Shown: positions 1 to 8,941 of the stretch, in pieces
Layout: each line of letters starts with the position of its first letter
How positions within the stretch are numbered: the stretch's first letter is position 1
From: an uncultured archaeon
GTDB lineage: Archaea > Asgardarchaeota > Thorarchaeia > Thorarchaeales > Thorarchaeaceae
Assembly: GCA_964558645.1 (NCBI GenBank)
Contig: CAZLEV010000003.1
Span: 128,001-192,000, forward strand
Direction: 5' to 3'
Length of the DNA stretch: 64,000 nucleotides
The notes under the pieces: generated by a model
Databases searched by the model: none
The model's input: the letters and a program-made list of their open reading frames with translations, nothing else
Told to the model about the DNA's origin: nothing
Translations under genes and position numbers: made by a program

Positions 1-275
1 CGGGCCCGAAGATGAGCCTGGGTGCTATTCACTTGCTCAAAGCGCTTGATTCCATAGGCTTTGATTTACTCATCACCTCCGAGGACATCCCTCAGATGTC
101 GAGTTCCCCTGATCCTGAGGTTCTCAAGCTCTATGCAGAACTTGAGCGCATCCTAATAGCTGTGGACGGAGCCAAGACGATTAAGGACATCTCTGAAGTG
201 ACAAGAATCGATGTTGGGGTTGTGCTTCATGTGCTTAGAGACCTTCATAAACGGGGCATGGTTGCGTTCAAATAG
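1..275 (+). CDS. 5'-truncated protein, C-terminal winged-helix region paralogous to the C-terminus of the downstream GTPase fusion (NPRL2-like)
   Basis: Frame is open to the window edge (GGC CCG AAG ATG). GAIHLL..IP....PDP....Y......DG..T...I matches GALQIM..IP....PDP....Y......DG..P...V of ORF 373-2346. Confidence 0.7.
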   Translation, partial: GPKMSLGAIHLLKALDSIGFDLLITSEDIPQMSSSPDPEVLKLYAELERILIAVDGAKTIKDISEVTRIDVGVVLHVLRDLHKRGMVAFK

Positions 276-293
276 ACTGTCAGTATCCCCACC

Positions 294-304
294 AAAGGTT
301 CATA
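294..304 (+). promoter_or_regulatory. Putative BRE/TATA promoter
   Basis: AAAGGTTCATA; the same AAAGG(G)TT-W-TA pattern recurs upstream of other genes (8311, 17666, 27147, 37329). Confidence 0.45.
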
Positions 305-372
305 GAGGTTGATTTAACTACACGTCCTGAAGGAAAACATCATCTCACATAAAACAAACCCGCTCTGCTGGA

Positions 373-2346
373 GTGTGCTGCAATCTGATTCACAATGTTA
401 TACTCATCGACAAGGCGACTGGAGAAGTCGTCACTAGGGTCAGATTCTGGAAGATAGACTTCACTGATGATGATATACGTGAGTTCATGAATGGGTATTC
501 GGATCTCATGGACACCGAGGGTCTCTCTCCAGACACTCCGGTCTATGTCGGCGAGCACAAGGTGTTCCACTCTCTTGTTGATGATGATATTCAGCTCATG
601 CTTGTTACTGATGGCAGAGATGAGGATCGAACAATTGTCCGAAAAGCCAAAGAAGGAGCCGCCCGGATATCTACTGCACTGAGGGGTAATAGCATAGGGT
701 ATGTGAAAGACAATCTGGATGATATTCTAGATGAGCTGGTCTTCACAAGATTCAAGGTGTCTTTTGTTGGCTCCGGTGGTGTTGGCAAGAGTACGTTGCT
801 CAGACTACTGTTTGGCAAGGAACCAGCACCAGGCGGCTATGTTCCCACTATCAACGTCGCCGTAGACTCGTCAGAGACAATACAGTTCGGCACTTTTCTC
901 GTCACCATATGGGACTTCGCAGGGCAGGCGGTATTTCAAGATCTCTGGGCCTTCTATTTCTCGGGCACAGATGTCATTTTCCTCATTACTGACAGCAGTT
1001 TCCGGAATGTGATGCAGACCAAGAGCCTGCTGCGAACCATTCGGAAGGAAGCTCCTGCGGTTCCGCTCTTCATCATTGCAAACAAACAGGATCTCCCGGA
1101 GTCCATGCGAGCTGAGAAGATTCAGCGGCTTCTGGGTGCACCTACGTTCCCAATGGTTGCAACGGACAAGACTCGAAGGGACGAGTTCATTCGACTGATG
1201 CTCGAGGTAGCCACGAAGACAGTGGGAGTCGAGTTGCCCGACAGGCCTCTGAGTGAGATGATTACGGTTCACCGAAAGGACAAGGAGGTTGAACTACCTC
1301 CTCAGCCTGGCAATATTCGCAGCGATTCAGGTGCCACGTCTGGTGAGAAAGGGGAGTGGATCGAAGCTCAGCACAGTGGAGAGAGCGGACTCTCGGGTGA
1401 CTTGAGAGCGGGCGAAGTCAGTGGCGACTCGACAATCGACTACCCCGTCAATATCGAGCCCGAATCTGATGCGGTTGTTGAGATTCCTGAGAAGATTGCT
1501 GAGCAGGCACGGGTTCTCCATGTGATTATGATCGTTCAGGACAGCGGGACGTTCCATACCTGCTACGAGCTCAACTATGCCAACGAGGAAGTGGACGCCA
1601 CCGCAATCACATCTTTGATCTCCGCTCTCGATTCCTTTGGTGGAATCGACGGTGATCCCAGCGGCATGGCCGATAAGAGTGACGCCCTTAAGAGAATCGA
1701 ACACGAAGGAAACCTGGTCATGGTGGAGAAGTCTGACCATTTCTTGCTAGGTGTGACAGTCACCAATGACAGTGAAGAAGAGAAGTATCGAAGGATCATG
1801 TCCTCTCTGCTCTTCGAGTTCGAAGAAGCATATCAAGGAACTTGGGGTGCCTGGGATGGAGATGTGACAATCTTTGAACCCACCGTTTTTTCACTTCTGC
1901 AGAAGATACCAATGAGCCCTATCAGTTTCGACTATGTAGTTCGCGCACGTGAGGCCGGTCGTCCGCTATCATTTGACAGTAGAGAGGTGGGTCGTTCCAT
2001 TGTGGAAGTCAAGAGCGCAATAGAAGGGTCTGAGACCGTTGGAGGCTTGGTTAGAAGCCTAGACCTTCCCCGGGAGAATGTCACTGGAGCGCTGCAGATC
2101 ATGGAGCATTTTGGATGGATTAGCTTTCAAGTTGACCTCGGGCCACAGAGCATTCCTAGGAAAGTCAAGAATCCTGATCCTGACACAGTCAAGGCTTATG
2201 GCACAGCGGTTGTCAAGTTCGTGGATTACTGTGATGGCGAAACACCTCTGGAGGATGTCGTAAAGAAGGTCGGTGTAAGCTACAACGCTATGAAGTTCGT
2301 CGCGACCAAGCTTGTGCTATCTGGTGTTCTTGAGATTGTGGCTTAG
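373..2346 (+). CDS. Longin - Arf/Rab-like small GTPase - longin - tandem winged-helix fusion protein
   Basis: G1 GSGGVGKST, G2 YVPTI, G3 IWDFAGQ, G4 NKQD. N-terminal IHNVILID..G longin pattern; second longin (LHVIMI...ITSLISALDSF...FEFEEAY...WDGDVTIF); C-terminal wH pair. Start is GTG 373 or possibly CTG 385. Confidence 0.85.
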   Translation: MCCNLIHNVILIDKATGEVVTRVRFWKIDFTDDDIREFMNGYSDLMDTEGLSPDTPVYVGEHKVFHSLVDDDIQLMLVTDGRDEDRTIVRKAKEGAARISTALRGNSIGYVKDNLDDILDELVFTRFKVSFVGSGGVGKSTLLRLLFGKEPAPGGYVPTINVAVDSSETIQFGTFLVTIWDFAGQAVFQDLWAFYFSGTDVIFLITDSSFRNVMQTKSLLRTIRKEAPAVPLFIIANKQDLPESMRAEKIQRLLGAPTFPMVATDKTRRDEFIRLMLEVATKTVGVELPDRPLSEMITVHRKDKEVELPPQPGNIRSDSGATSGEKGEWIEAQHSGESGLSGDLRAGEVSGDSTIDYPVNIEPESDAVVEIPEKIAEQARVLHVIMIVQDSGTFHTCYELNYANEEVDATAITSLISALDSFGGIDGDPSGMADKSDALKRIEHEGNLVMVEKSDHFLLGVTVTNDSEEEKYRRIMSSLLFEFEEAYQGTWGAWDGDVTIFEPTVFSLLQKIPMSPISFDYVVRAREAGRPLSFDSREVGRSIVEVKSAIEGSETVGGLVRSLDLPRENVTGALQIMEHFGWISFQVDLGPQSIPRKVKNPDPDTVKAYGTAVVKFVDYCDGETPLEDVVKKVGVSYNAMKFVATKLVLSGVLEIVA

Positions 2347-2349
2347 AGG

Positions 2350-4485
2350 TTAGACGTCAAGCACAATCCTCTCCTTGTATTGGGGTAATAGGATATCGCC
2401 ACTTGTTTTCTTGATTGGAGTATGAACCATGGCTTTCTTGCCCGTGCAAGAAGCAACGAACTCTGCGAGCCTTGAAGCTGATGAGTGGGCACTAAGCCGT
2501 GCATATTCAACAGCACACTTGTGATCTTCGTATCCATGCAAGAGATTCCATCCGGTTGTACGTGGTGCAAGGTACCCACACAAGATGACAGCTGCATCTG
2601 GGTTATGTCGATGCTCATTGTAGTGCATTTTGGCAAAGCCGCCGTCGAGCATTCCACCTCCAGCCACTAGAATGTCGTCATCTTCGAGAACGACTTTGTT
2701 CTTTTTCATGCCTGTCCAGTCGCCATTGTAACCCGTCAGCTTGGTCACTCGTTCTGCCATGCCCGCCACAATCACGTTTCTAGATGAGGTAATCCCAAGT
2801 TCGTCAAGCATGACAAGGACTTCCTGTGACCTGCCGACGGCGAAGGTCGGAATAATCACTGGACCGTGTCTGGCTATGGTCTGCGAGACCTGATCAGATA
2901 CTTGTCTTCTGTCGAAATCCTCCCTTTCCCAGTATGTACCGTCAAAGATTGTCAAATCGCAGTCTGTAGGTAGGGTAGCTCCGTGGAACAGCACGGATTT
3001 ATCAAGATTGAAATCACCTGTGTAGAGAATCCTTTTTCCCTCCACATCCACGACAAAAGCCGAGCTTCCGGGAATGTGTCTTGCCTCAGTCGGGGTGACA
3101 ACAATGCCTCCGGCTAGCTCGCTTGCTGTCCCCGTTTCTAGTTGTACATAGTTTCTCTTGACTTTGTCTATGTTCGTCCGATTGAACCAGGAAACCATGT
3201 CATACTTGTCATTCCGTCTCGGCGGAAGTGGAGTCCCTACCTTGAGGGCATCCTCAAGAAGAGTCATCGAAACTGCCCCCGTGATCCCGCTTGCACACCA
3301 CTTCCCCGGATAGTGCTCATAGAGCGCAGGAAGTCCTCCAACGTGATCAAGATGTGAGTGTGTGATAAGCACGCAGTCAATCATCTCCAGTTCAGGGACC
3401 CATTCAGGGATTCTCTGATTAGCGACTGACAGACCGTAATCAAGGAGGATGGCACTGGTATCTGTCCTCACCAGAATGCCACTTCTGCCAATCTCTGGCC
3501 CACCAAGGAATATTATCTCTACTTGCTTGGCCCTTCTAGAATACGCAATTGACGACATCAGTTCCACTCGGAGTTTCTGTGGAATCATCTCAAAGAGGAC
3601 GGGTTCAACTGCTTCAGGAGGGGGTGCCGAATCAAGATCCTGCAGGCGGATGGGCAGTACTCTCCCTTCAGCACTCATGAATCTCCTCTTCTGATAGACT
3701 CTCTGAACGGCATCATATGCCTCTGAAACACCTGCCTCCGGACCAATCTTCTCTTGTGCTTCTTGATTGACTCTCTTTCGGAATATATCGAGAATCCTAG
3801 ATGACAGCACATCAGGCAGCCAGCTTCGGGTTGCCTTATAGACATCCAAGTATTCCTTCCCCCGGAGAGCCTCCTCCAAGTACTCCGGATATCGGCGGAT
3901 CGAATCTGTGAGTCTGAAGTCATCGGATTCCAGGGCTGATTCCAGATTCAAGCCAAGCTCTGAGGCGGGTTCTCTGAAATCATCCGGCTTATAGTAGGGG
4001 GATCCTAAGAACGCAATCCATTCTCTTAGACCACTCATTACCTGCATCGCATTCTTTCCCGATGCGATTTCGATGAGAACAAGGGCTCTCTTCAGAAGGG
4101 CATCTACGCCTTCTTGATGGAGCTTTCCGAGAGAGTATCGATACACATATCGAAGGTCTTCCTCGTCGAAATTTCCGAAGATAAAACCATAGCAACACAT
4201 TGCCAGCGCATCGAGGTATTCCTGCAACGATAATCGGTCTATCTCGCTCAGAAAGATCTTACGTAGGGTCTCGCTCACCTTCGCACCATGCTCTATTCCT
4301 TCGATATCCTCATCAATAGCTACTCTGGCCTGGTAGACTGCAATTTCCAGGCTTCGCTTCAATGGACCGTCCAGGTCCGAAATATCAGCTCTTTCGTCGG
4401 ATATAGAATGGGAGCTGACTCTGGAGAAGAAATCCTGAATCACTTCTGTTGAGGCATCTTCCCGGAGTCGTTCGATCAGTGTCAT
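2350..4485 (-). CDS. Beta-CASP metallo-beta-lactamase ribonuclease (aCPSF-like) with ~320-aa helical N-terminal extension
   Basis: GGPEIGRS, LLDYG, THSHLDHVG, HIPGS, YTGD, DGTY, FAVGRSQE, GMLxGG, LSAH and VH motifs. Confidence 0.85.
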   Translation of the reverse strand: MTLIERLREDASTEVIQDFFSRVSSHSISDERADISDLDGPLKRSLEIAVYQARVAIDEDIEGIEHGAKVSETLRKIFLSEIDRLSLQEYLDALAMCCYGFIFGNFDEEDLRYVYRYSLGKLHQEGVDALLKRALVLIEIASGKNAMQVMSGLREWIAFLGSPYYKPDDFREPASELGLNLESALESDDFRLTDSIRRYPEYLEEALRGKEYLDVYKATRSWLPDVLSSRILDIFRKRVNQEAQEKIGPEAGVSEAYDAVQRVYQKRRFMSAEGRVLPIRLQDLDSAPPPEAVEPVLFEMIPQKLRVELMSSIAYSRRAKQVEIIFLGGPEIGRSGILVRTDTSAILLDYGLSVANQRIPEWVPELEMIDCVLITHSHLDHVGGLPALYEHYPGKWCASGITGAVSMTLLEDALKVGTPLPPRRNDKYDMVSWFNRTNIDKVKRNYVQLETGTASELAGGIVVTPTEARHIPGSSAFVVDVEGKRILYTGDFNLDKSVLFHGATLPTDCDLTIFDGTYWEREDFDRRQVSDQVSQTIARHGPVIIPTFAVGRSQEVLVMLDELGITSSRNVIVAGMAERVTKLTGYNGDWTGMKKNKVVLEDDDILVAGGGMLDGGFAKMHYNEHRHNPDAAVILCGYLAPRTTGWNLLHGYEDHKCAVEYARLSAHSSASRLAEFVASCTGKKAMVHTPIKKTSGDILLPQYKERIVLDV

Positions 4486-4504: not shown

Positions 4505-5560
4505 TTAGCGCTCGATGGGCTTGACGGCCATAAATAGTCCTCGTCTGCTATCGCGGAGTGACAGGTGCTTCTTGACCAGTCCTTCAGACATCAGGATGGA
4601 GAGTGCATGTCTGACTGTTCTCGCAGGTAGCATGGTCTCCTCTATGATTTGTCTGGCTGTCAGCTTCTCATGGTATTCCAGTACTTTGAGCACGAGCTTC
4701 GCACTGGGAGGTAGATCTTGAGCAAGATCCTCAAGGATGTCTGTTTTCTTCTGCAATTTGCCGCGCAGGGCGGCGATTCTCTCTTCGGTAAGTTTCACGA
4801 ATATCGCATCGCTATCTGCTCTTCTAACAATGATTGGGCCAGAGTTCACGTTATGCCTGAGCTGCCCATCTAGAATGGTCTCTACCATTACCGGGCAGGT
4901 CAGTTTGCGAATCTCGATTTCTATATTATCCGCCACAATCAGTGGTCTTCTTGCGGGATTTGTGCTGTTCACTGGTATCACAGAGAGAACCGGGGCAGGA
5001 GATAGCACTATGGGGCCGCCTGTACTCAAGGAGTAGGCTGTACTTCCAGTAGGAGTGGCTATGATAAGTCCATCACTGCCGTCTTTCCAAAACTCCTCTC
5101 CATCGAGGTTCAGTGAATACCTGATAAGTGTAGCATTGCGTTTGGCAAAGATAGCTGCTTCATTAAGAGCAGGTGGAATTTCGCTATCGCCAACAGTAAC
5201 TGAGAGGCGAGAACGATGATCTTCAGTCCACTCGCCTGCAATCAAGTCTTCAACGGCAAGTTCGAAATTGCCTGTCGTAACGTCAAAGAAGAAGTCCGGC
5301 TGCCCTCGTGAAGAAATAGGCAGAATTGGGGTTGGGCAGTTGCCCATCTGTAGTAGGGTGTCAAGGACTGTTCGGTCAGAGCCAACGACGGCCACGACAT
5401 CCGCATCTAGGTCATCAAGGTTCTTGCCCGAGGAATCCAAGGCTTCTGCCAGCCCATGCTCTAGAATCACGTCTGCTCCCTCTTGATTGAGCAGATACAG
5501 CACTGACTTTGCGTCCTGAATCATGCTTGACTCATTGCCGGAAATCAAACCAATCTTCGT
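4505..5560 (-). CDS. NAD(+) kinase-family protein fused to a C-terminal winged HTH
   Basis: ALNE and DGLIIATPTGSTAYSLSTGGP motifs; GGDGT motif altered to GSDRT; C-terminal LPPSAKLVLKVLEY...LPARTVRHALSILMSEGLV wHTH. Start uncertain (ACG 5560, TTG 5548 or ATG 5524). Confidence 0.85.
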   Translation of the reverse strand, partial: TKIGLISGNESSMIQDAKSVLYLLNQEGADVILEHGLAEALDSSGKNLDDLDADVVAVVGSDRTVLDTLLQMGNCPTPILPISSRGQPDFFFDVTTGNFELAVEDLIAGEWTEDHRSRLSVTVGDSEIPPALNEAAIFAKRNATLIRYSLNLDGEEFWKDGSDGLIIATPTGSTAYSLSTGGPIVLSPAPVLSVIPVNSTNPARRPLIVADNIEIEIRKLTCPVMVETILDGQLRHNVNSGPIIVRRADSDAIFVKLTEERIAALRGKLQKKTDILEDLAQDLPPSAKLVLKVLEYHEKLTARQIIEETMLPARTVRHALSILMSEGLVKKHLSLRDSRRGLFMAVKPIER

Positions 5561-5758: not shown

Positions 5759-6715
5759 ATGAAACTCAACGAACTTCAGAAACGCATTGTCGAACTGAAA
5801 GCAAGGCGTAATGCACTCATCCTGGCCCACAACTATCAGACACTTGAAGTACAGCAAATAGCAGATTTCGTTGGTGATTCGCTGCAGCTCGCTAGGAAAT
5901 CATCAGAGATAGAGGGCTTTGATATGGTCATCTTTGCAGGTGTACGTTTCATGGCCGAAATGTCAGCTGTCTTGACGGACATCCCAGTCTATATTCCAGA
6001 TCCAGATGCTCTCTGCCCCTTGGCTGCTTGGGTCCATCCTGAGAAGATTCGTTCAAGACGGAGCGAGTATCCTGATGCTCCAGTAGTAGTCTATGTCAAT
6101 ACGACTGCAGAAACCAAGGCCGAATGTGATGTCATATGCACGTCGAGCAATGCCGTTGAGGTCATTGAATCTCTTGGTGCTACACAGGTTCTGTTCGGTC
6201 CAGACAGGAATCTAGCCGAGTATGTTCGCAGGCAGACTGACTGTGAAATTGTTGATATAGAACCTCGTGGGAGCTGCTATGTTCACCTCCAATTCGTGCC
6301 CGAGGATATCACTCGACTGAAGGAGGAGCATCCTGATGCTATTGCTATTGCCCATCCGGAATGTCCACCAGAGGTTCAAGAGGTATCGGACATCGTTGGT
6401 TCGACAGGGAAGATGGTTCAAGTTGTTGCTGAGTCTTCAGCTCGAAAGTTCATTATAGCCACTGAGTTAGGCCTAGTAGAGCAGCTCCAGGCTGACCATC
6501 CTGACAAGATGATCATGGCTGCAAAGCCCACTGCAGTATGTAGAACTATGAAGAGGATTACTCTTGAGAAAATTCTTCATGTCTTAGAAGACTTACCTGC
6601 CGATCATCGGGTAACAGTTCCGAATCATATGACTGATCACATACGCACTGTATTGGAGAAGATGAACCGCCTCAAGACACGTGAAGAGGCAGAAACTGTG
6701 ACTGCCTCACATTAG
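5759..6715 (+). CDS. nadA: Quinolinate synthase A
   Basis: ILAHNYQ, GDSL, GVRFMAE, YVNT, CTSSNA, PDRNL, CYVH, AHPEC, GST and ATE motifs; Fe-S cysteines present. Confidence 0.95.
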   Translation: MKLNELQKRIVELKARRNALILAHNYQTLEVQQIADFVGDSLQLARKSSEIEGFDMVIFAGVRFMAEMSAVLTDIPVYIPDPDALCPLAAWVHPEKIRSRRSEYPDAPVVVYVNTTAETKAECDVICTSSNAVEVIESLGATQVLFGPDRNLAEYVRRQTDCEIVDIEPRGSCYVHLQFVPEDITRLKEEHPDAIAIAHPECPPEVQEVSDIVGSTGKMVQVVAESSARKFIIATELGLVEQLQADHPDKMIMAAKPTAVCRTMKRITLEKILHVLEDLPADHRVTVPNHMTDHIRTVLEKMNRLKTREEAETVTASH

Positions 6716-6900
6716 TCTGAATAGAACCACATAGCATCAATAGTCTGGATATCGCATCTCGTTATCATGATAGGCCACTCTCGTGCTGAGGCGATGGAAT
6801 TTCCAGAAACTGGTGAGGTCAATTTGCACAACCGACCACCTAGAATCATATTGGGGAAATGAAGTGGCTCAAGAAGCTGGGTGGGTATCAAGCGCTCGAG

Positions 6901-7569
6901 CTAGTCCTCCTCTCGAAATCTGATTACATCAAGGAGCTCAGATAGTTCTCCAATTACAGGCCCGTCATGTCCAGCCTCTCTGAAATCATCTTCAGAAAAC
7001 ATCCCTGCAACCGCTACGAAGGAGCAATATCCATTTGCTCTCTCATAGTCCTTGATTGAATCTCCAACAAAGACAATTTCTGACATCTCAATATTGTGTT
7101 GCTCTTGCACATACTTGAAGTGATCCTTGCCCTTTTCGAATCCGGGCCTGTATCCCAATATCTGGTCGAAGAAGTTCTGCAGGTTCCTTCTGGCAAAGTA
7201 CTTCTCAATTGTCGACTGAAAAGTCGACGAGGAAACGAATACCGAAAACCCCCTGTCGTTAAGCACGGCAAGGGTCCTGACTGTATCAGGGAAGAGTCTC
7301 TGGTCATAGATGGAGTCTATCTTCAGTTTCTCAAACTCTTCAATCGCATGCTTATTTTCGGTTCTGTCAGGGAAGTTGATTTGTATCTGCTGTTCGAATG
7401 GTAATCCTGTTGTTGTCCTGTATCTCTTGGTGGCTTCTTCGCTGGTGATGTCGTAATACTTCATCATGGTTCTGACACCAATTCTCTCCAGGAATGGCAT
7501 GCTGTCTGCCAGCGTTCCATCAAAGTCAAGGATGACAGCAGTACACGGGATTGGCTCTCTCATATTCAT
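6901..7569 (-). CDS. HAD-superfamily hydrolase
   Basis: Motif I DFDGTLADS, motif II SSS, K, motif IV VGDSIKD. Confidence 0.9.
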   Translation of the reverse strand: MNMREPIPCTAVILDFDGTLADSMPFLERIGVRTMMKYYDITSEEATKRYRTTTGLPFEQQIQINFPDRTENKHAIEEFEKLKIDSIYDQRLFPDTVRTLAVLNDRGFSVFVSSSTFQSTIEKYFARRNLQNFFDQILGYRPGFEKGKDHFKYVQEQHNIEMSEIVFVGDSIKDYERANGYCSFVAVAGMFSEDDFREAGHDGPVIGELSELLDVIRFREED

Positions 7570-7681
7570 CGCCTAGGCCTTTCAATGACTTAGATTGTTC
7601 TTCTAAACACTTTTGGTCGTACAAGGCCGACCTAGAATACAGGTTTGGTATCTTGTGATGTTCTTCAGAAGACTGCTGACC

Positions 7682-8224
7682 TCAACATGATGTGTCCTCT
7701 CCGCGTTGATTTCTCTTGTAGTCTTCTATGCATCTGTTGATCGATACGTATGCATCTTTGAGTTCCTTGAATTTCTTGACCTCTGTATGAACACCCTCGT
7801 AGACCTTGTAGAAGCGGTAGAACTGTGCAATTTCGTTGACCTGACTCTTGGGGAGGTCAAGAATGCTGTTCACTTCACGGTAGTAGGGGTCGTTGACGTG
7901 TACTGCAATGATTTTGTCATCAATGCGTCCAGCGTCTTCCATTTCCATCATACCTATTGGTCTGGCATGCACGAGGCAGGAAGTGAAAGTTGGTTCCTTA
8001 ATCAGCAAGATGACATCGAGAGGGTCACCATCACAGTCAAGAGAGTGCGGCATGAATCCGTAATCGAAAGGCGCGAAGGTGTAAAGAACTCTGTCCACAT
8101 GGAAGCAGTTGTACTCTGTATTGTACTCAAGTTTGTTCTTGCTGGCTCTGGTCATCTCGATTATGACGTATATCTCACTCGGAGGGTCTGGTCCAGGAGG
8201 TATATCGTGAAGGTAGTTCGTCAT
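7682..8224 (-). CDS. ppa: Family I inorganic pyrophosphatase
   Basis: IIE...KLEY, DRVLY, DYGF, DGDPLD, DDKIIAV, FYRFYK; ATG at 8224 (MTNYLH). Confidence 0.92.
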   Translation of the reverse strand: MTNYLHDIPPGPDPPSEIYVIIEMTRASKNKLEYNTEYNCFHVDRVLYTFAPFDYGFMPHSLDCDGDPLDVILLIKEPTFTSCLVHARPIGMMEMEDAGRIDDKIIAVHVNDPYYREVNSILDLPKSQVNEIAQFYRFYKVYEGVHTEVKKFKELKDAYVSINRCIEDYKRNQRGEDTSC

Positions 8225-8347
8225 GTGCTTTCCGCCAAGTGGTTTCGAGAGTCTCCCTTCTAATGAGGTTTGCCACTTGGCATTCACTTGCTGGAATAGG
8301 TATCATCAGCAAGGGTTTTTACTGAGTATTATTCTCTATTCTACGGA

Positions 8348-8941
8348 GTGATTCACATATTGCCAGACCTCAATGAATCAGCTGAAGATAGACCTGAACC
8401 TGAAGATGACACTCTCGACATCGGCTCGCTATTCAGGGGCACAGCTACAGTCACATTCATGGTCGAGGTCGTCACAGCCATCATGATGCTTGGTTCGGGT
8501 GTTGCTTTCGTTGTAAGCAGCTCGGGCTTCTTGGACTTCCTAGAGGGCGACGTGTTAATCTTCCTATTCCTGCTAGGCTCTATGATTACGCTATTCTTCT
8601 TCTTGGGAACAATTGGCTTCTTCGTCAGGGTCAACAGGAAGTTGGGTCGCACAGTGTTCTGGGAGGGTGTGGGTCAAGTGGATCTATCTAAGCCACGCGT
8701 CAAAACAGTCGTGCTAATCTATGGGCTTGCTGTAGGTCTTGTTCTCGTAATGGGCATGTATGGCTACTGGCTGGTATGGAAGTACTTCTTTGAAGCCATG
8801 GCGGCCACCTCTTTGAGTGTATTCGGTTTTGGAATATCTCTTGGTGGATTTATGCTCGCACTCCTTGTGCAGATGGTTGTGATTGCCGTGGGTAGAACCG
8901 CCTCGAATGTTGTGAGAACCGTCCTCGCGGAGGACAGCTAA
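8348..8941 (+). CDS. Hypothetical 4-TM membrane protein
   Basis: Four hydrophobic segments; BRE/TATA AAGGGTTTTTA at 8311. Confidence 0.7.
   Translation: MIHILPDLNESAEDRPEPEDDTLDIGSLFRGTATVTFMVEVVTAIMMLGSGVAFVVSSSGFLDFLEGDVLIFLFLLGSMITLFFFLGTIGFFVRVNRKLGRTVFWEGVGQVDLSKPRVKTVVLIYGLAVGLVLVMGMYGYWLVWKYFFEAMAATSLSVFGFGISLGGFMLALLVQMVVIAVGRTASNVVRTVLAEDS

What the first reader, a model, noticed from the sequence alone, without database searches (positions are those of the whole stretch)
1..2346. Candidate proto-GATOR1 module: small GTPase fused in cis to an NPRL2-like longin+winged-helix unit, next to a second NPRL-like gene
Seen: ORF 373-2346 has a longin domain, an intact GTPase (~748-1220), an acidic low-complexity linker, a second longin (~1507-1900) and two wH-like repeats (AIEGSETVGGLVRSLDL...VTGALQIMEHFGWI; YCDGETPLEDVV...LVLSGVL). 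The truncated upstream gene ends in a homologous wH unit (AVDGAKTIKDISEVTRIDVGVVLHVLRDLHKRGMV). Known: eukaryotic NPRL2 and NPRL3 are paralogous longin + winged-helix proteins that heterodimerise in GATOR1, the GAP for RagA/B. From memory, their wH begins with a similar I-D-G-x-x-x-I-x-x-I...L-x-x-x-G-x-V pattern. Inference: the two genes encode an NPRL2/NPRL3-like pair with the target GTPase tethered to one subunit, a compact ancestral GTPase-regulator complex.
Basis: partly seen in the sequence, partly recalled or inferred. Interest (0 to 1): 0.8.

Follow-up and report, generated by a model that had tools for sequence, protein, structure and literature searches.

The report
Thorarchaeal GTPase and dead-GTPase twin genes
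Two neighbouring genes of a Thorarchaeota (Asgard archaeon) genome encode an Arf-like GTPase and a full-length sister protein with a dead GTPase domain; both are built as longin, G domain, longin and two winged helices, a layout that recalls the eukaryotic Rag and NPRL2/NPRL3 (GATOR1) switch proteins, though real kinship to GATOR1 is only weakly supported.

Summary
ORF 373-2346 (657 aa) has this domain order:
- a sigma-adaptin/zeta-COP-like longin;
- an intact Arf-family G domain;
- an ~80-aa acidic disordered linker;
- a second longin;
- two acidic winged helices.

The upstream gene is 575 aa, and only its last 91 codons lie in the window. It is more than "a second NPRL-like gene": it is a full-length paralog (hhalign 98% over 539 columns). 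Its middle domain keeps the small-GTPase fold but has lost the P-loop, DxxGQ and NKxD, so it is a pseudoGTPase.

The pair is directly adjacent in 57 of 67 testable Thorarchaeota loci. The partner was found in 40/43 sampled genomes of the same GTDB family and in 0/158 genomes of other Asgard families.

NPRL2 kinship is weak:
- For: a profile of the longin+2wH module ranks NPRL2 first among PDB sequences (E 0.0013). Foldseek ranks an SEA-complex chain first, and GATOR1-complex chains high, for the partner model.
- Against: Pfam NPR2 finds nothing. The second longin looks more like MON1/FUZ. No arginine finger is evident. The fused GTPase is Arf-like, not Rag-like.

An NPRL2-like longin family in Thorarchaeota was already published (Liu et al. 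2020/2021). Earlier runs of this scan also reported this gene pair in other Thorarchaeota genomes.

Most likely the two proteins form a heterodimeric active/dead GTPase switch. Binding and activity are untested.

The parts
1..275 (+). 3' end (last 91 codons plus stop) of the 575-aa partner gene. This stretch covers the end of wH1 and all of wH2. The whole gene is G000:C3:126548-128275, i.e. it starts 1452 bases before window position 1 (L002:8548-10275). The full protein runs longin (aa 13-134), pseudoGTPase (aa 133-282), longin (aa 311-413), wH, wH.
276..372 (+). 97-nt spacer between the partner gene and the GTPase gene. The scans found no terminator-like site. The spacer is 63-182 nt in 57 related loci.
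373..2346 (+). 657-aa gene: longin, Arf-like GTPase, acidic linker, longin, wH, wH. The start codon is GTG.
385..744 (+). First longin domain (aa 5-124), sigma/mu-adaptin and zeta/delta-COP-like. It is very conserved, including the invariant T79-D80-G81-R82-D83-E84.
745..1233 (+). Arf-family G domain (aa 125-287). G1 is GSGGVGKST, the switch-I residue is T159, G3 is WDFAGQ with the catalytic Gln, and G4 is NKQDLP.
1249..1500 (+). Acidic, disordered, poorly conserved linker (aa 293-376; net charge -11; pLDDT about 30).
1501..1842 (+). Second longin domain (aa 377-490). R473 is invariant in the 32 GTPase-fused homologs, and its column is Arg in at least 90% of the three module groups.
1870..2166 (+). 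First winged-helix unit with its leading helices (aa 500-598; pI 5.8).
2167..2343 (+). Second winged-helix unit (aa 599-657; pI 5.1). This is the stretch whose profile aligns to human NPRL2 residues 170-236.

Best explanation
The two adjacent genes encode a pseudo-symmetric pair of full-length paralogs, each built as longin, G domain, longin and two winged helices. One has a working Arf-family GTPase and the other a nucleotide-dead GTPase fold.

I propose that they form a heterodimeric molecular switch, in the manner of Rag/Gtr heterodimers and longin-based regulator pairs. In this model:
- the longin domains serve as built-in platforms that hold and regulate the single active G domain;
- the dead subunit acts as a fixed-state regulatory or scaffolding half;
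- the acidic tandem winged helices act as protein-protein contact modules, as in the NPRL2/NPRL3 C-terminal domains, not as DNA binders;
- the GTP/GDP state of the one live site would set the conformation of the assembly towards effectors that are still unknown.

Shown: the architecture, the paralogy, the loss of G motifs, conservation and synteny. Inferred: heterodimerisation, regulation of the G domain by the longins, and any link to nutrient or membrane signalling.

The longin+2wH tail probably belongs to the same broad superfamily as NPRL2/NPRL3. The pair is not an ortholog of GATOR1.
For: Paralogy and loss of G motifs:
- hhalign of the two families gives 98.2%, E 5e-14, 539 columns over the whole length. 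The P-loop is deleted and DxxGQ and NKQD are replaced in the partner.

Active subunit:
- Its G motifs are invariant in 32 homologs.
- Its nearest solved relative is Arf1 (E 6e-15).

Synteny and distribution:
- The partner lies directly upstream on the same strand, 63-182 nt away, in 57 of 67 testable loci.
- The same neighbourhood is seen at 65% identity.
- The partner was found in 40/43 genomes of the same GTDB family, as a single gene in nearly all of them.
- The GTPase protein was found in about 41/43.

Resemblance to Rag, SEA-complex and GATOR1-complex chains:
- Both models give Foldseek alignments of 320-384 columns to RagA/Gtr1/LokiRagO (G domain plus C-terminal roadblock), and hits to SEA-complex chain 8adl_S. 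The partner model also hits 362-408-residue chains of GATOR1 entries whose identities were not checked.

Winged helices: they are net acidic (pI 5.1-5.8).

Established knowledge: longin/roadblock dimers act as GTPase platforms (PMC3747258), and Asgard longin-GTPase-roadblock fusions exist (PMC10933270).
Against: - No direct evidence shows that the two proteins bind each other or that the longins touch the G domain.
- The inter-domain arrangement in the AF2 models is uncertain (pTM 0.43 and 0.51), and the G domain of the 657-aa model is poorly predicted.
- The GTPase protein occurs without the partner in a complete Thorarchaeota chromosome and in the one sampled genome of a sister family. It can therefore work alone or with another partner.
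- The 97-nt spacer leaves co-transcription open.
- The partner evolves much faster than the GTPase protein (about 40% against about 65% identity).
Confidence: 0.55

Rival explanations
1. Proto-GATOR1 in the strict sense. The longin+2wH modules of the two proteins pair like NPRL2-NPRL3 and act as a longin-type GAP, with an arginine or equivalent residue, on the G domain tethered in cis. The module would be a true homolog of the GATOR1 core.
For: - A profile of the module ranks NPRL2 first in the PDB (E 0.0013; wH2 aligns to NPRL2 170-236).
- The standalone-subfamily profile hits human NPRL2 (E 0.016) and yeast Npr2 (E 0.07).
- Foldseek ranks SEA-complex chain 8adl_S (named Npr2) first for the partner model, and 362-408-residue chains of GATOR1 entries, whose identities were not checked, high.
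- Liu et al. report an NPRL2-like longin plus C-terminal-domain family in most Thor MAGs.
- The partner's first longin carries G-[S/P]-K in the beta1-beta2 loop (39/40) and R/K at the end of beta4 (36/40). [quoted passage not shown]
- Arf-type GTPases need an external catalytic residue (established knowledge).
Against: - Pfam NPR2 finds nothing in the genome or in the protein.
- The GTPase-fused subfamily profile alone gives no NPRL2 hit.
- The second longin matches MON1/FUZ longin-1, the catalytic longin of a GEF, better than NPRL2.
- The basic residue in the partner is Lys in 16/40 sequences, so it is not a strict arginine finger. The GP-like motif sits in the first longin, not in the NPRL2-like module.
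- The client is Arf-like, not Rag-like.
- No DEPDC5-like component was sought or seen.
Confidence: 0.15
2. Built-in exchange factor. The second longins of the two proteins pair like Mon1-Ccz1 or Fuzzy-Inturned longin-1 and act as a GEF or nucleotide-free-state chaperone for the fused G domain.
For: - MON1A longin-1 is the second-best PDB hit of the module profile (E 0.0025).
- Pfam Fuz_longin_1 matches 8 of 21 module sequences (best E 3e-4) and the partner itself (E 0.006).
- Foldseek and VIA list Mon1-Ccz1, CPLANE and BLOC-3 chains.
Against: - All E-values are marginal.
- The long VIA alignments to Fuzzy have rmsd 18.
- These proteins have two longins, not three.
- No catalytic GEF residues can be mapped.
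Confidence: 0.12
3. GTP-controlled DNA-binding regulators. The C-terminal winged helices bind DNA, as in archaeal TrmB/MarR/ArsR regulators, and the GTPase gates this binding.
Against: - All four winged helices are net acidic (pI 5.1-5.8), and the whole proteins have pI 4.7.
- All the matches are below Pfam cut-offs.
- The same module profile prefers NPRL2, a protein-binding wH.
Confidence: 0.08
4. The two proteins work independently. The adjacency is a remnant of a tandem duplication, and the dead copy has another role or none.
For: The GTPase protein occurs without the partner in some genomes. A gene is inserted between the two in 4 loci. The partner diverges faster.
Against: The partner keeps an intact full-length frame and many invariant residues across the family. 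The adjacency is kept in 57 of 67 loci at about 40% identity.
Confidence: 0.1

Closest known systems
NPRL2-NPRL3 (yeast Npr2-Npr3), core of GATOR1/SEACIT, the GAP for RagA/Gtr1
   Same: - Both are pairs of paralogs.
- Each carries a longin followed by two or more winged-helix repeats.
- There is a weak sequence signal: NPRL2 is the best PDB hit of the module profile (E 0.0013), with wH2 aligned to NPRL2 170-236.
- Foldseek ranks SEA-complex chain 8adl_S (Npr2) first for the partner model, with chains of GATOR1 entries high.
   Different: - Here the module sits behind an extra longin and a (pseudo)GTPase in the same chain.
- The Pfam NPR2 model does not recognise it.
- No strict arginine finger is present.
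- The GTPase is Arf-like.
- No DEPDC5 is known here.
- The second longin is closer to MON1/FUZ.
Rag/Gtr GTPase heterodimers, and Asgard Rag-like longin-GTPase-roadblock proteins (PMC10933270; LokiRagO, PDB 8yl2)
   Same: - A G domain is followed by a longin/roadblock domain.
- Two paralogous chains are expected to pair.
- Foldseek gives 320-384-column alignments to RagA/Gtr1/LokiRagO.
- An N-terminal longin before the G domain is known in Lokiarchaeia.
   Different: - One subunit is nucleotide-dead.
- By sequence the G domain belongs to the Arf family (NKQDLP), and Gtr1_RagA scores below its cut-off.
- There is an 80-aa acidic linker.
- Two winged helices are added at the C-terminus.
C9orf72-SMCR8 (CSW) and FLCN-FNIP, longin-based GAPs for Arf and RagC
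   Same: A longin heterodimer serves as a GTPase platform. CSW acts on Arf, the family of this G domain. The partner's first longin has G-[S/P]-K where GAP longins have the GP motif.
   Different: No DENN domain is present. The candidate basic residue is R or K, not invariant Arg. The regulator and the GTPase are fused.
Tri-longin RabGEFs (Mon1-Ccz1, Fuzzy-Inturned/CPLANE, BLOC-3)
   Same: Heterodimers of multi-longin paralogs. The second longin gives marginal matches to the MON1/FUZ/HPS1 longin-1 profile. CPLANE holds a small GTPase stably.
   Different: There are two longins with a G domain between them, not three. The winged helices have no counterpart.
Bacterial MglA-MglB and actinobacterial 'conservon' modules (Roadblock + DUF742 + small GTPase; named from my own knowledge)
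   Same: A roadblock/longin, a small wH protein and a Ras-superfamily GTPase work together. DUF742 weakly matches the winged helices of 7 of 21 module sequences.
   Different: Those are separate small proteins with MglA-type GTPases. Here everything is fused, duplicated, and Arf-like.

Membership tests
NPRL2/NPRL3 (Pfam NPR2 PF06218, NPR3) | Longin domain followed by two or more winged-helix repeats | tested here: met
   AF2 models put a longin (aa 381-486) and then two wH units in the 657-aa protein, and the same in the partner. The family definition is from PMC3747258. Here the module is the C-terminal half of a larger protein.
NPRL2/NPRL3 (Pfam NPR2 PF06218, NPR3) | Recognised by the family's curated sequence profile | tested here: not met
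   No NPR2 or NPR3 hit at E <= 10 for the protein or its C-terminal half. PF06218 finds nothing in the whole genome at E <= 10. Only 2 of 21 module sequences match, best E 0.082.
NPRL2/NPRL3 (Pfam NPR2 PF06218, NPR3) | Reverse profile search prefers NPRL2/3 over generic wH or longin families | tested here: inconclusive
   - Combined profile: NPRL2 first, E 0.0013, against >= 0.07 for regulators.
- Standalone subfamily: NPRL2 0.016 and Npr2 0.07.
- Partner subfamily: 0.3, tied with CodY.
- GTPase-fused subfamily: no hit.
- The longin part prefers MON1.
NPRL2/NPRL3 (Pfam NPR2 PF06218, NPR3) | Catalytic arginine finger beside a GP motif in the longin (PMC12290439) | tested here: inconclusive
   - Neither longin of the 657-aa protein has Arg in the beta4-beta5 loop.
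- The partner's first longin has G-[S30/P8]-K and R20/K16 at the end of beta4.
- The mapping to NPRL2 Arg78 rests on my recollection of the NPRL2 sequence and on fold topology, not on a superposition.
NPRL2/NPRL3 (Pfam NPR2 PF06218, NPR3) | The two paralogs form a heterodimer that is a GAP for a Rag-family GTPase | not testable with these tools
   Only conserved adjacency is shown. The fused G domain is Arf-like rather than Rag-like. Activity needs biochemistry.
Arf family of small GTPases | Pfam Arf above its gathering score, with G1-G5 including WDxxGQ and NKQD | tested here: met
   Arf scores 64.3 bits against a cut-off of 22.3. The motifs are invariant. Arf1 is the best PDB match (E 6e-15), with NKQDLP aligned.
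Arf family of small GTPases | N-terminal amphipathic helix that inserts into membranes | tested here: not met
   A 120-aa longin domain precedes the G domain directly.
Rag/Gtr GTPases | Gtr1_RagA profile above cut-off | tested here: not met
   21.1 bits against a cut-off of 22, E 2.3e-4, far below Arf.
Rag/Gtr GTPases | G domain followed by a C-terminal roadblock/longin dimerisation domain | tested here: met
PseudoGTPase (partner protein) | Small-GTPase fold with the nucleotide-binding motifs lost | tested here: met
Tri-longin RabGEFs (MON1/CCZ1/FUZ/HPS1) | Three consecutive longin domains | tested here: not met
   Two longins with a G-fold domain between them. Fuz_longin_1 matches are below the cut-off.

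The most novel reading that the evidence does not exclude
The active/dead pair, perhaps together with the tandem standalone longin+2wH proteins of the same genomes, is a surviving archaeal relative of the ancestor of both Rag heterodimers and the NPRL2-NPRL3 GAP core. It would be a single complex in which a longin-type GAP or GEF and its Arf/Rag-like client are still fused. The eukaryotic GATOR1-Rag axis could then be traced to a fused Asgard module and reconstituted in vitro.
Probability: 0.15. Interest if true: 0.85.

Novelty: new variant of a known kind. Interest (0 to 1): 0.55.

Why it matters
Longin and roadblock platforms that control small GTPases are central to eukaryotic membrane traffic and nutrient signalling: Rag-Ragulator, GATOR1, folliculin, C9orf72-SMCR8 and Mon1-Ccz1. 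How they arose is an open question.

This pair gives a compact, conserved, soluble-looking archaeal system. One live Arf-like GTPase, its dead twin, four longins and four winged helices lie in two chains. It could be expressed, crystallised and assayed to see what a longin does to a GTPase fused to it.

I found no paper on an Asgard pseudoGTPase. However, NPRL2-like longin families and longin-GTPase fusions in Asgard archaea are already published. The gain is therefore a specific testable module rather than a new principle.

Tried and rejected
- **Complex prediction** on the two C-terminal halves (A1 372-657 with A2 300-575). No verdict: score 0.16 against a mark of 0.32, controls not run. This is evidence neither for nor against binding. 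The N-terminal halves could not be tested, because only one job was allowed.
- **Pfam NPR2.** No hit in the protein or in the whole genome.
- **Profiles of the two first longins against PDB sequences.** Nothing meaningful.
- **VIA-align lists.** They were filled by the first longin and the G fold. No NPRL2 chain reached the top 50. The C-terminal module was therefore barely tested by structure.
- **ESM Atlas searches.** Only unnamed Asgard clusters.
- **The search for related loci with the module alignment.** Failed for lack of a conserved stretch.
- **The 178-aa ORF after the distant 626-aa homolog.** Tested as a possible reduced partner and found unrelated (hhalign 0.5%).
- **DUF742 and HTH_47 searches of the genome.** Only sub-threshold generic wH hits.
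- **Profile-profile comparison with an NPRL2 family alignment.** I could not obtain eukaryotic NPRL2 sequences through the tools and did not type them from memory.
Full report
**Observation**

The window is G000:C3:128001-192000 of a 3.6-Mb Thorarchaeota MAG (names). ORF 373-2346 (+) is open and gives 657 aa.
- Pfam and NCBIfam see only a small GTPase at aa 125-256 (Arf 64.3 bits, Roc, Ras; Gtr1_RagA 21.1 bits, below its cut-off).
- An alignment of 32 homologs at 62-88% identity shows invariant G1 (GSGGVGKST), a switch-I Thr, WDFAGQ and NKQD.
- The nearest solved sequences are Arf1 proteins (E 6e-15), with NKQDLP aligned.
- The AF2 model (mean pLDDT 66; G domain poorly modelled, the rest about 80-85) gives: a longin at aa 5-124, the G domain, a disordered acidic linker at aa 295-376, a second beta-beta-alpha-beta-beta-beta-alpha longin at aa 381-486, and two helix-rich units that end in hairpins.

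**The upstream gene**

Only its last 91 codons lie in the window. The whole gene, taken from the genome, encodes 575 aa.
- It has no Pfam family above threshold.
- Its AF2 model is good (pLDDT 81.7).
- None of 40 homologs has a P-loop, DxxG or NKxD.
- Profile-profile alignment of the two families gives 98.2% probability, E 5e-14, over 539 columns from the first longin to the last winged helix. The P-loop segment is simply missing in the partner.

The two genes are therefore full-length paralogs, one live and one dead.

**Conservation and synteny**

- Both families are confined to Thorarchaeota records.
- Of 72 loci fetched with the GTPase protein, 67 have enough upstream DNA to test:
  - 57 have the partner directly upstream on the same strand, 63-182 nt away;
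  - 4 have one gene inserted between the two (a 526-aa opposite-strand ORF in L011);
  - 6 have no partner within 1.2-4 kb.
- In a sample of 201 Asgard genomes, the partner occurs in 40/43 genomes of the same GTDB family and in 0/158 genomes of 26 other families.
- The GTPase protein occurs in about 41/43 genomes of that family, and in the one sampled genome of the sister family, where the partner was not found.
- A complete Thorarchaeota chromosome also lacks the partner. Another genome has it on a different small contig.

**The NPRL2 question**

NPRL2/NPRL3 are longin proteins with two or more C-terminal winged-helix repeats (PMC3747258).

I aligned the longin+2wH module from three groups: the GTPase-fused proteins, the partners, and standalone 270-300-aa proteins found by an exhaustive HMMER search.

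Evidence for a link:
- The combined profile hits NPRL2 as the best of all PDB sequences (E 0.0013; wH2 and its leader against NPRL2 170-236). MON1A longin-1 follows (E 0.0025). Generic wHTH regulators come only at E >= 0.07.
- Foldseek of the partner model ranks chain 8adl_S of the SEA complex first. One search names that chain Npr2. Several 362-408-residue chains of GATOR1 entries, whose identities I did not check, rank high among Rag GTPases and Mon1-Ccz1. TM-scores are low and no aligned range is given.

Evidence against, or weakening it:
- Taken separately, the standalone profile still ranks NPRL2 first (0.016, plus yeast Npr2 0.07) and the partner profile does so only nominally (0.3). The GTPase-fused profile gives nothing.
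- Pfam NPR2 finds nothing in the protein or the genome.
- Per-sequence Pfam scans favour HTH_47 (10/21), Fuz_longin_1 (8/21) and DUF742 (7/21) over NPR2 (2/21).

The NPRL2 preference is real but marginal. It concerns the winged helix rather than the longin.

**Catalytic features**

GAP longins carry a GP motif in the beta1-beta2 loop next to an arginine finger (PMC12290439).
- Neither longin of the GTPase protein has these.
- The partner's first longin has D-L-x-G-[S/P]-K (G 39/40, P 8/40, K 39/40) and R or K at the end of beta4 (20 R, 16 K). This is suggestive, but it is not a strict arginine finger, and it does not lie in the NPRL2-like module.
- The winged helices are acidic (pI 5.1-5.8), which argues for protein contacts rather than DNA binding.

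**Literature**

- Liu et al. [quoted passage not shown]
- Tran et al. (PMC10933270) described Asgard GTPases fused to longin and roadblock domains.
- I found no paper on an Asgard pseudoGTPase or on this tandem pair.
- Earlier runs of this scan reported the same pair in other Thorarchaeota genomes, with similar readings.

**Interpretation**

The best reading is a heterodimeric switch with one live Arf-like site and one dead twin. It has built-in longin platforms and winged-helix contact modules, and it works like Rag heterodimers and longin regulator pairs.

It shares an architecture, and perhaps distant ancestry, with NPRL2/NPRL3. It fails the family's profile test, so it should not be filed as GATOR1.

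The genome also holds a conserved tandem pair of standalone longin+2wH proteins. That pair fits the NPRL2/3 layout better and could act as trans regulators.

Binding, GAP or GEF action, and effectors all remain to be tested.

Noticed in passing
G000:C17:55032-55874 and 55934-56776 (- strand; L093:5032-5874, 5934-6776); third copy G000:C11:59107-60015 (L094:4107-5015): A tandem pair of 280-aa standalone longin+2 winged-helix paralogs, plus a third copy elsewhere. They have no GTPase domain and no GTPase neighbour. The adjacent pair recurs in most genomes of the same GTDB family. Related standalone proteins occur in records named Baldrarchaeia and Ranarchaeia, and one cluster member is labelled Thermofilum. 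This pair fits the NPRL2/NPRL3 layout more closely than the finding itself and is probably the family noted by Liu et al.
   Followed up: partly
window 2350-4485 (-): A 711-aa metallo-beta-lactamase/beta-CASP nuclease with a ~330-aa N-terminal extension of no known family. It converges on the GTPase gene with a 3-nt gap. This neighbour is kept even beside the distant 626-aa homolog (L003-L007).
   Followed up: partly
window 4505-5548 (-) and 5759-6715 (+): A NAD-kinase-like protein with a C-terminal winged helix, head to head with quinolinate synthase nadA. The same arrangement is seen in L003-L005.
   Followed up: no
L002:5006-7198 and 7246-8511 (just upstream of the window): An N6-adenine methyltransferase (MmeI/Eco57I-like) followed by a cytosine-5 methyltransferase, with no nuclease beside them. 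The same pair precedes the partner gene in another Thorarchaeota genome (L006, L007).
   Followed up: no
L051 (CP070658.1, complete chromosome) and G114: The GTPase-fused protein is present, but the pseudoGTPase partner was not found in these genomes. The live subunit can therefore exist alone.
   Followed up: partly
L003:7976-8512: In the lineage with the distant 626-aa homolog, a 178-aa alpha/beta protein of no known family follows the GTPase gene. Upstream, where the partner would be, lies a CUB/PPC/caspase-like (Peptidase_C14) protein.
   Followed up: partly
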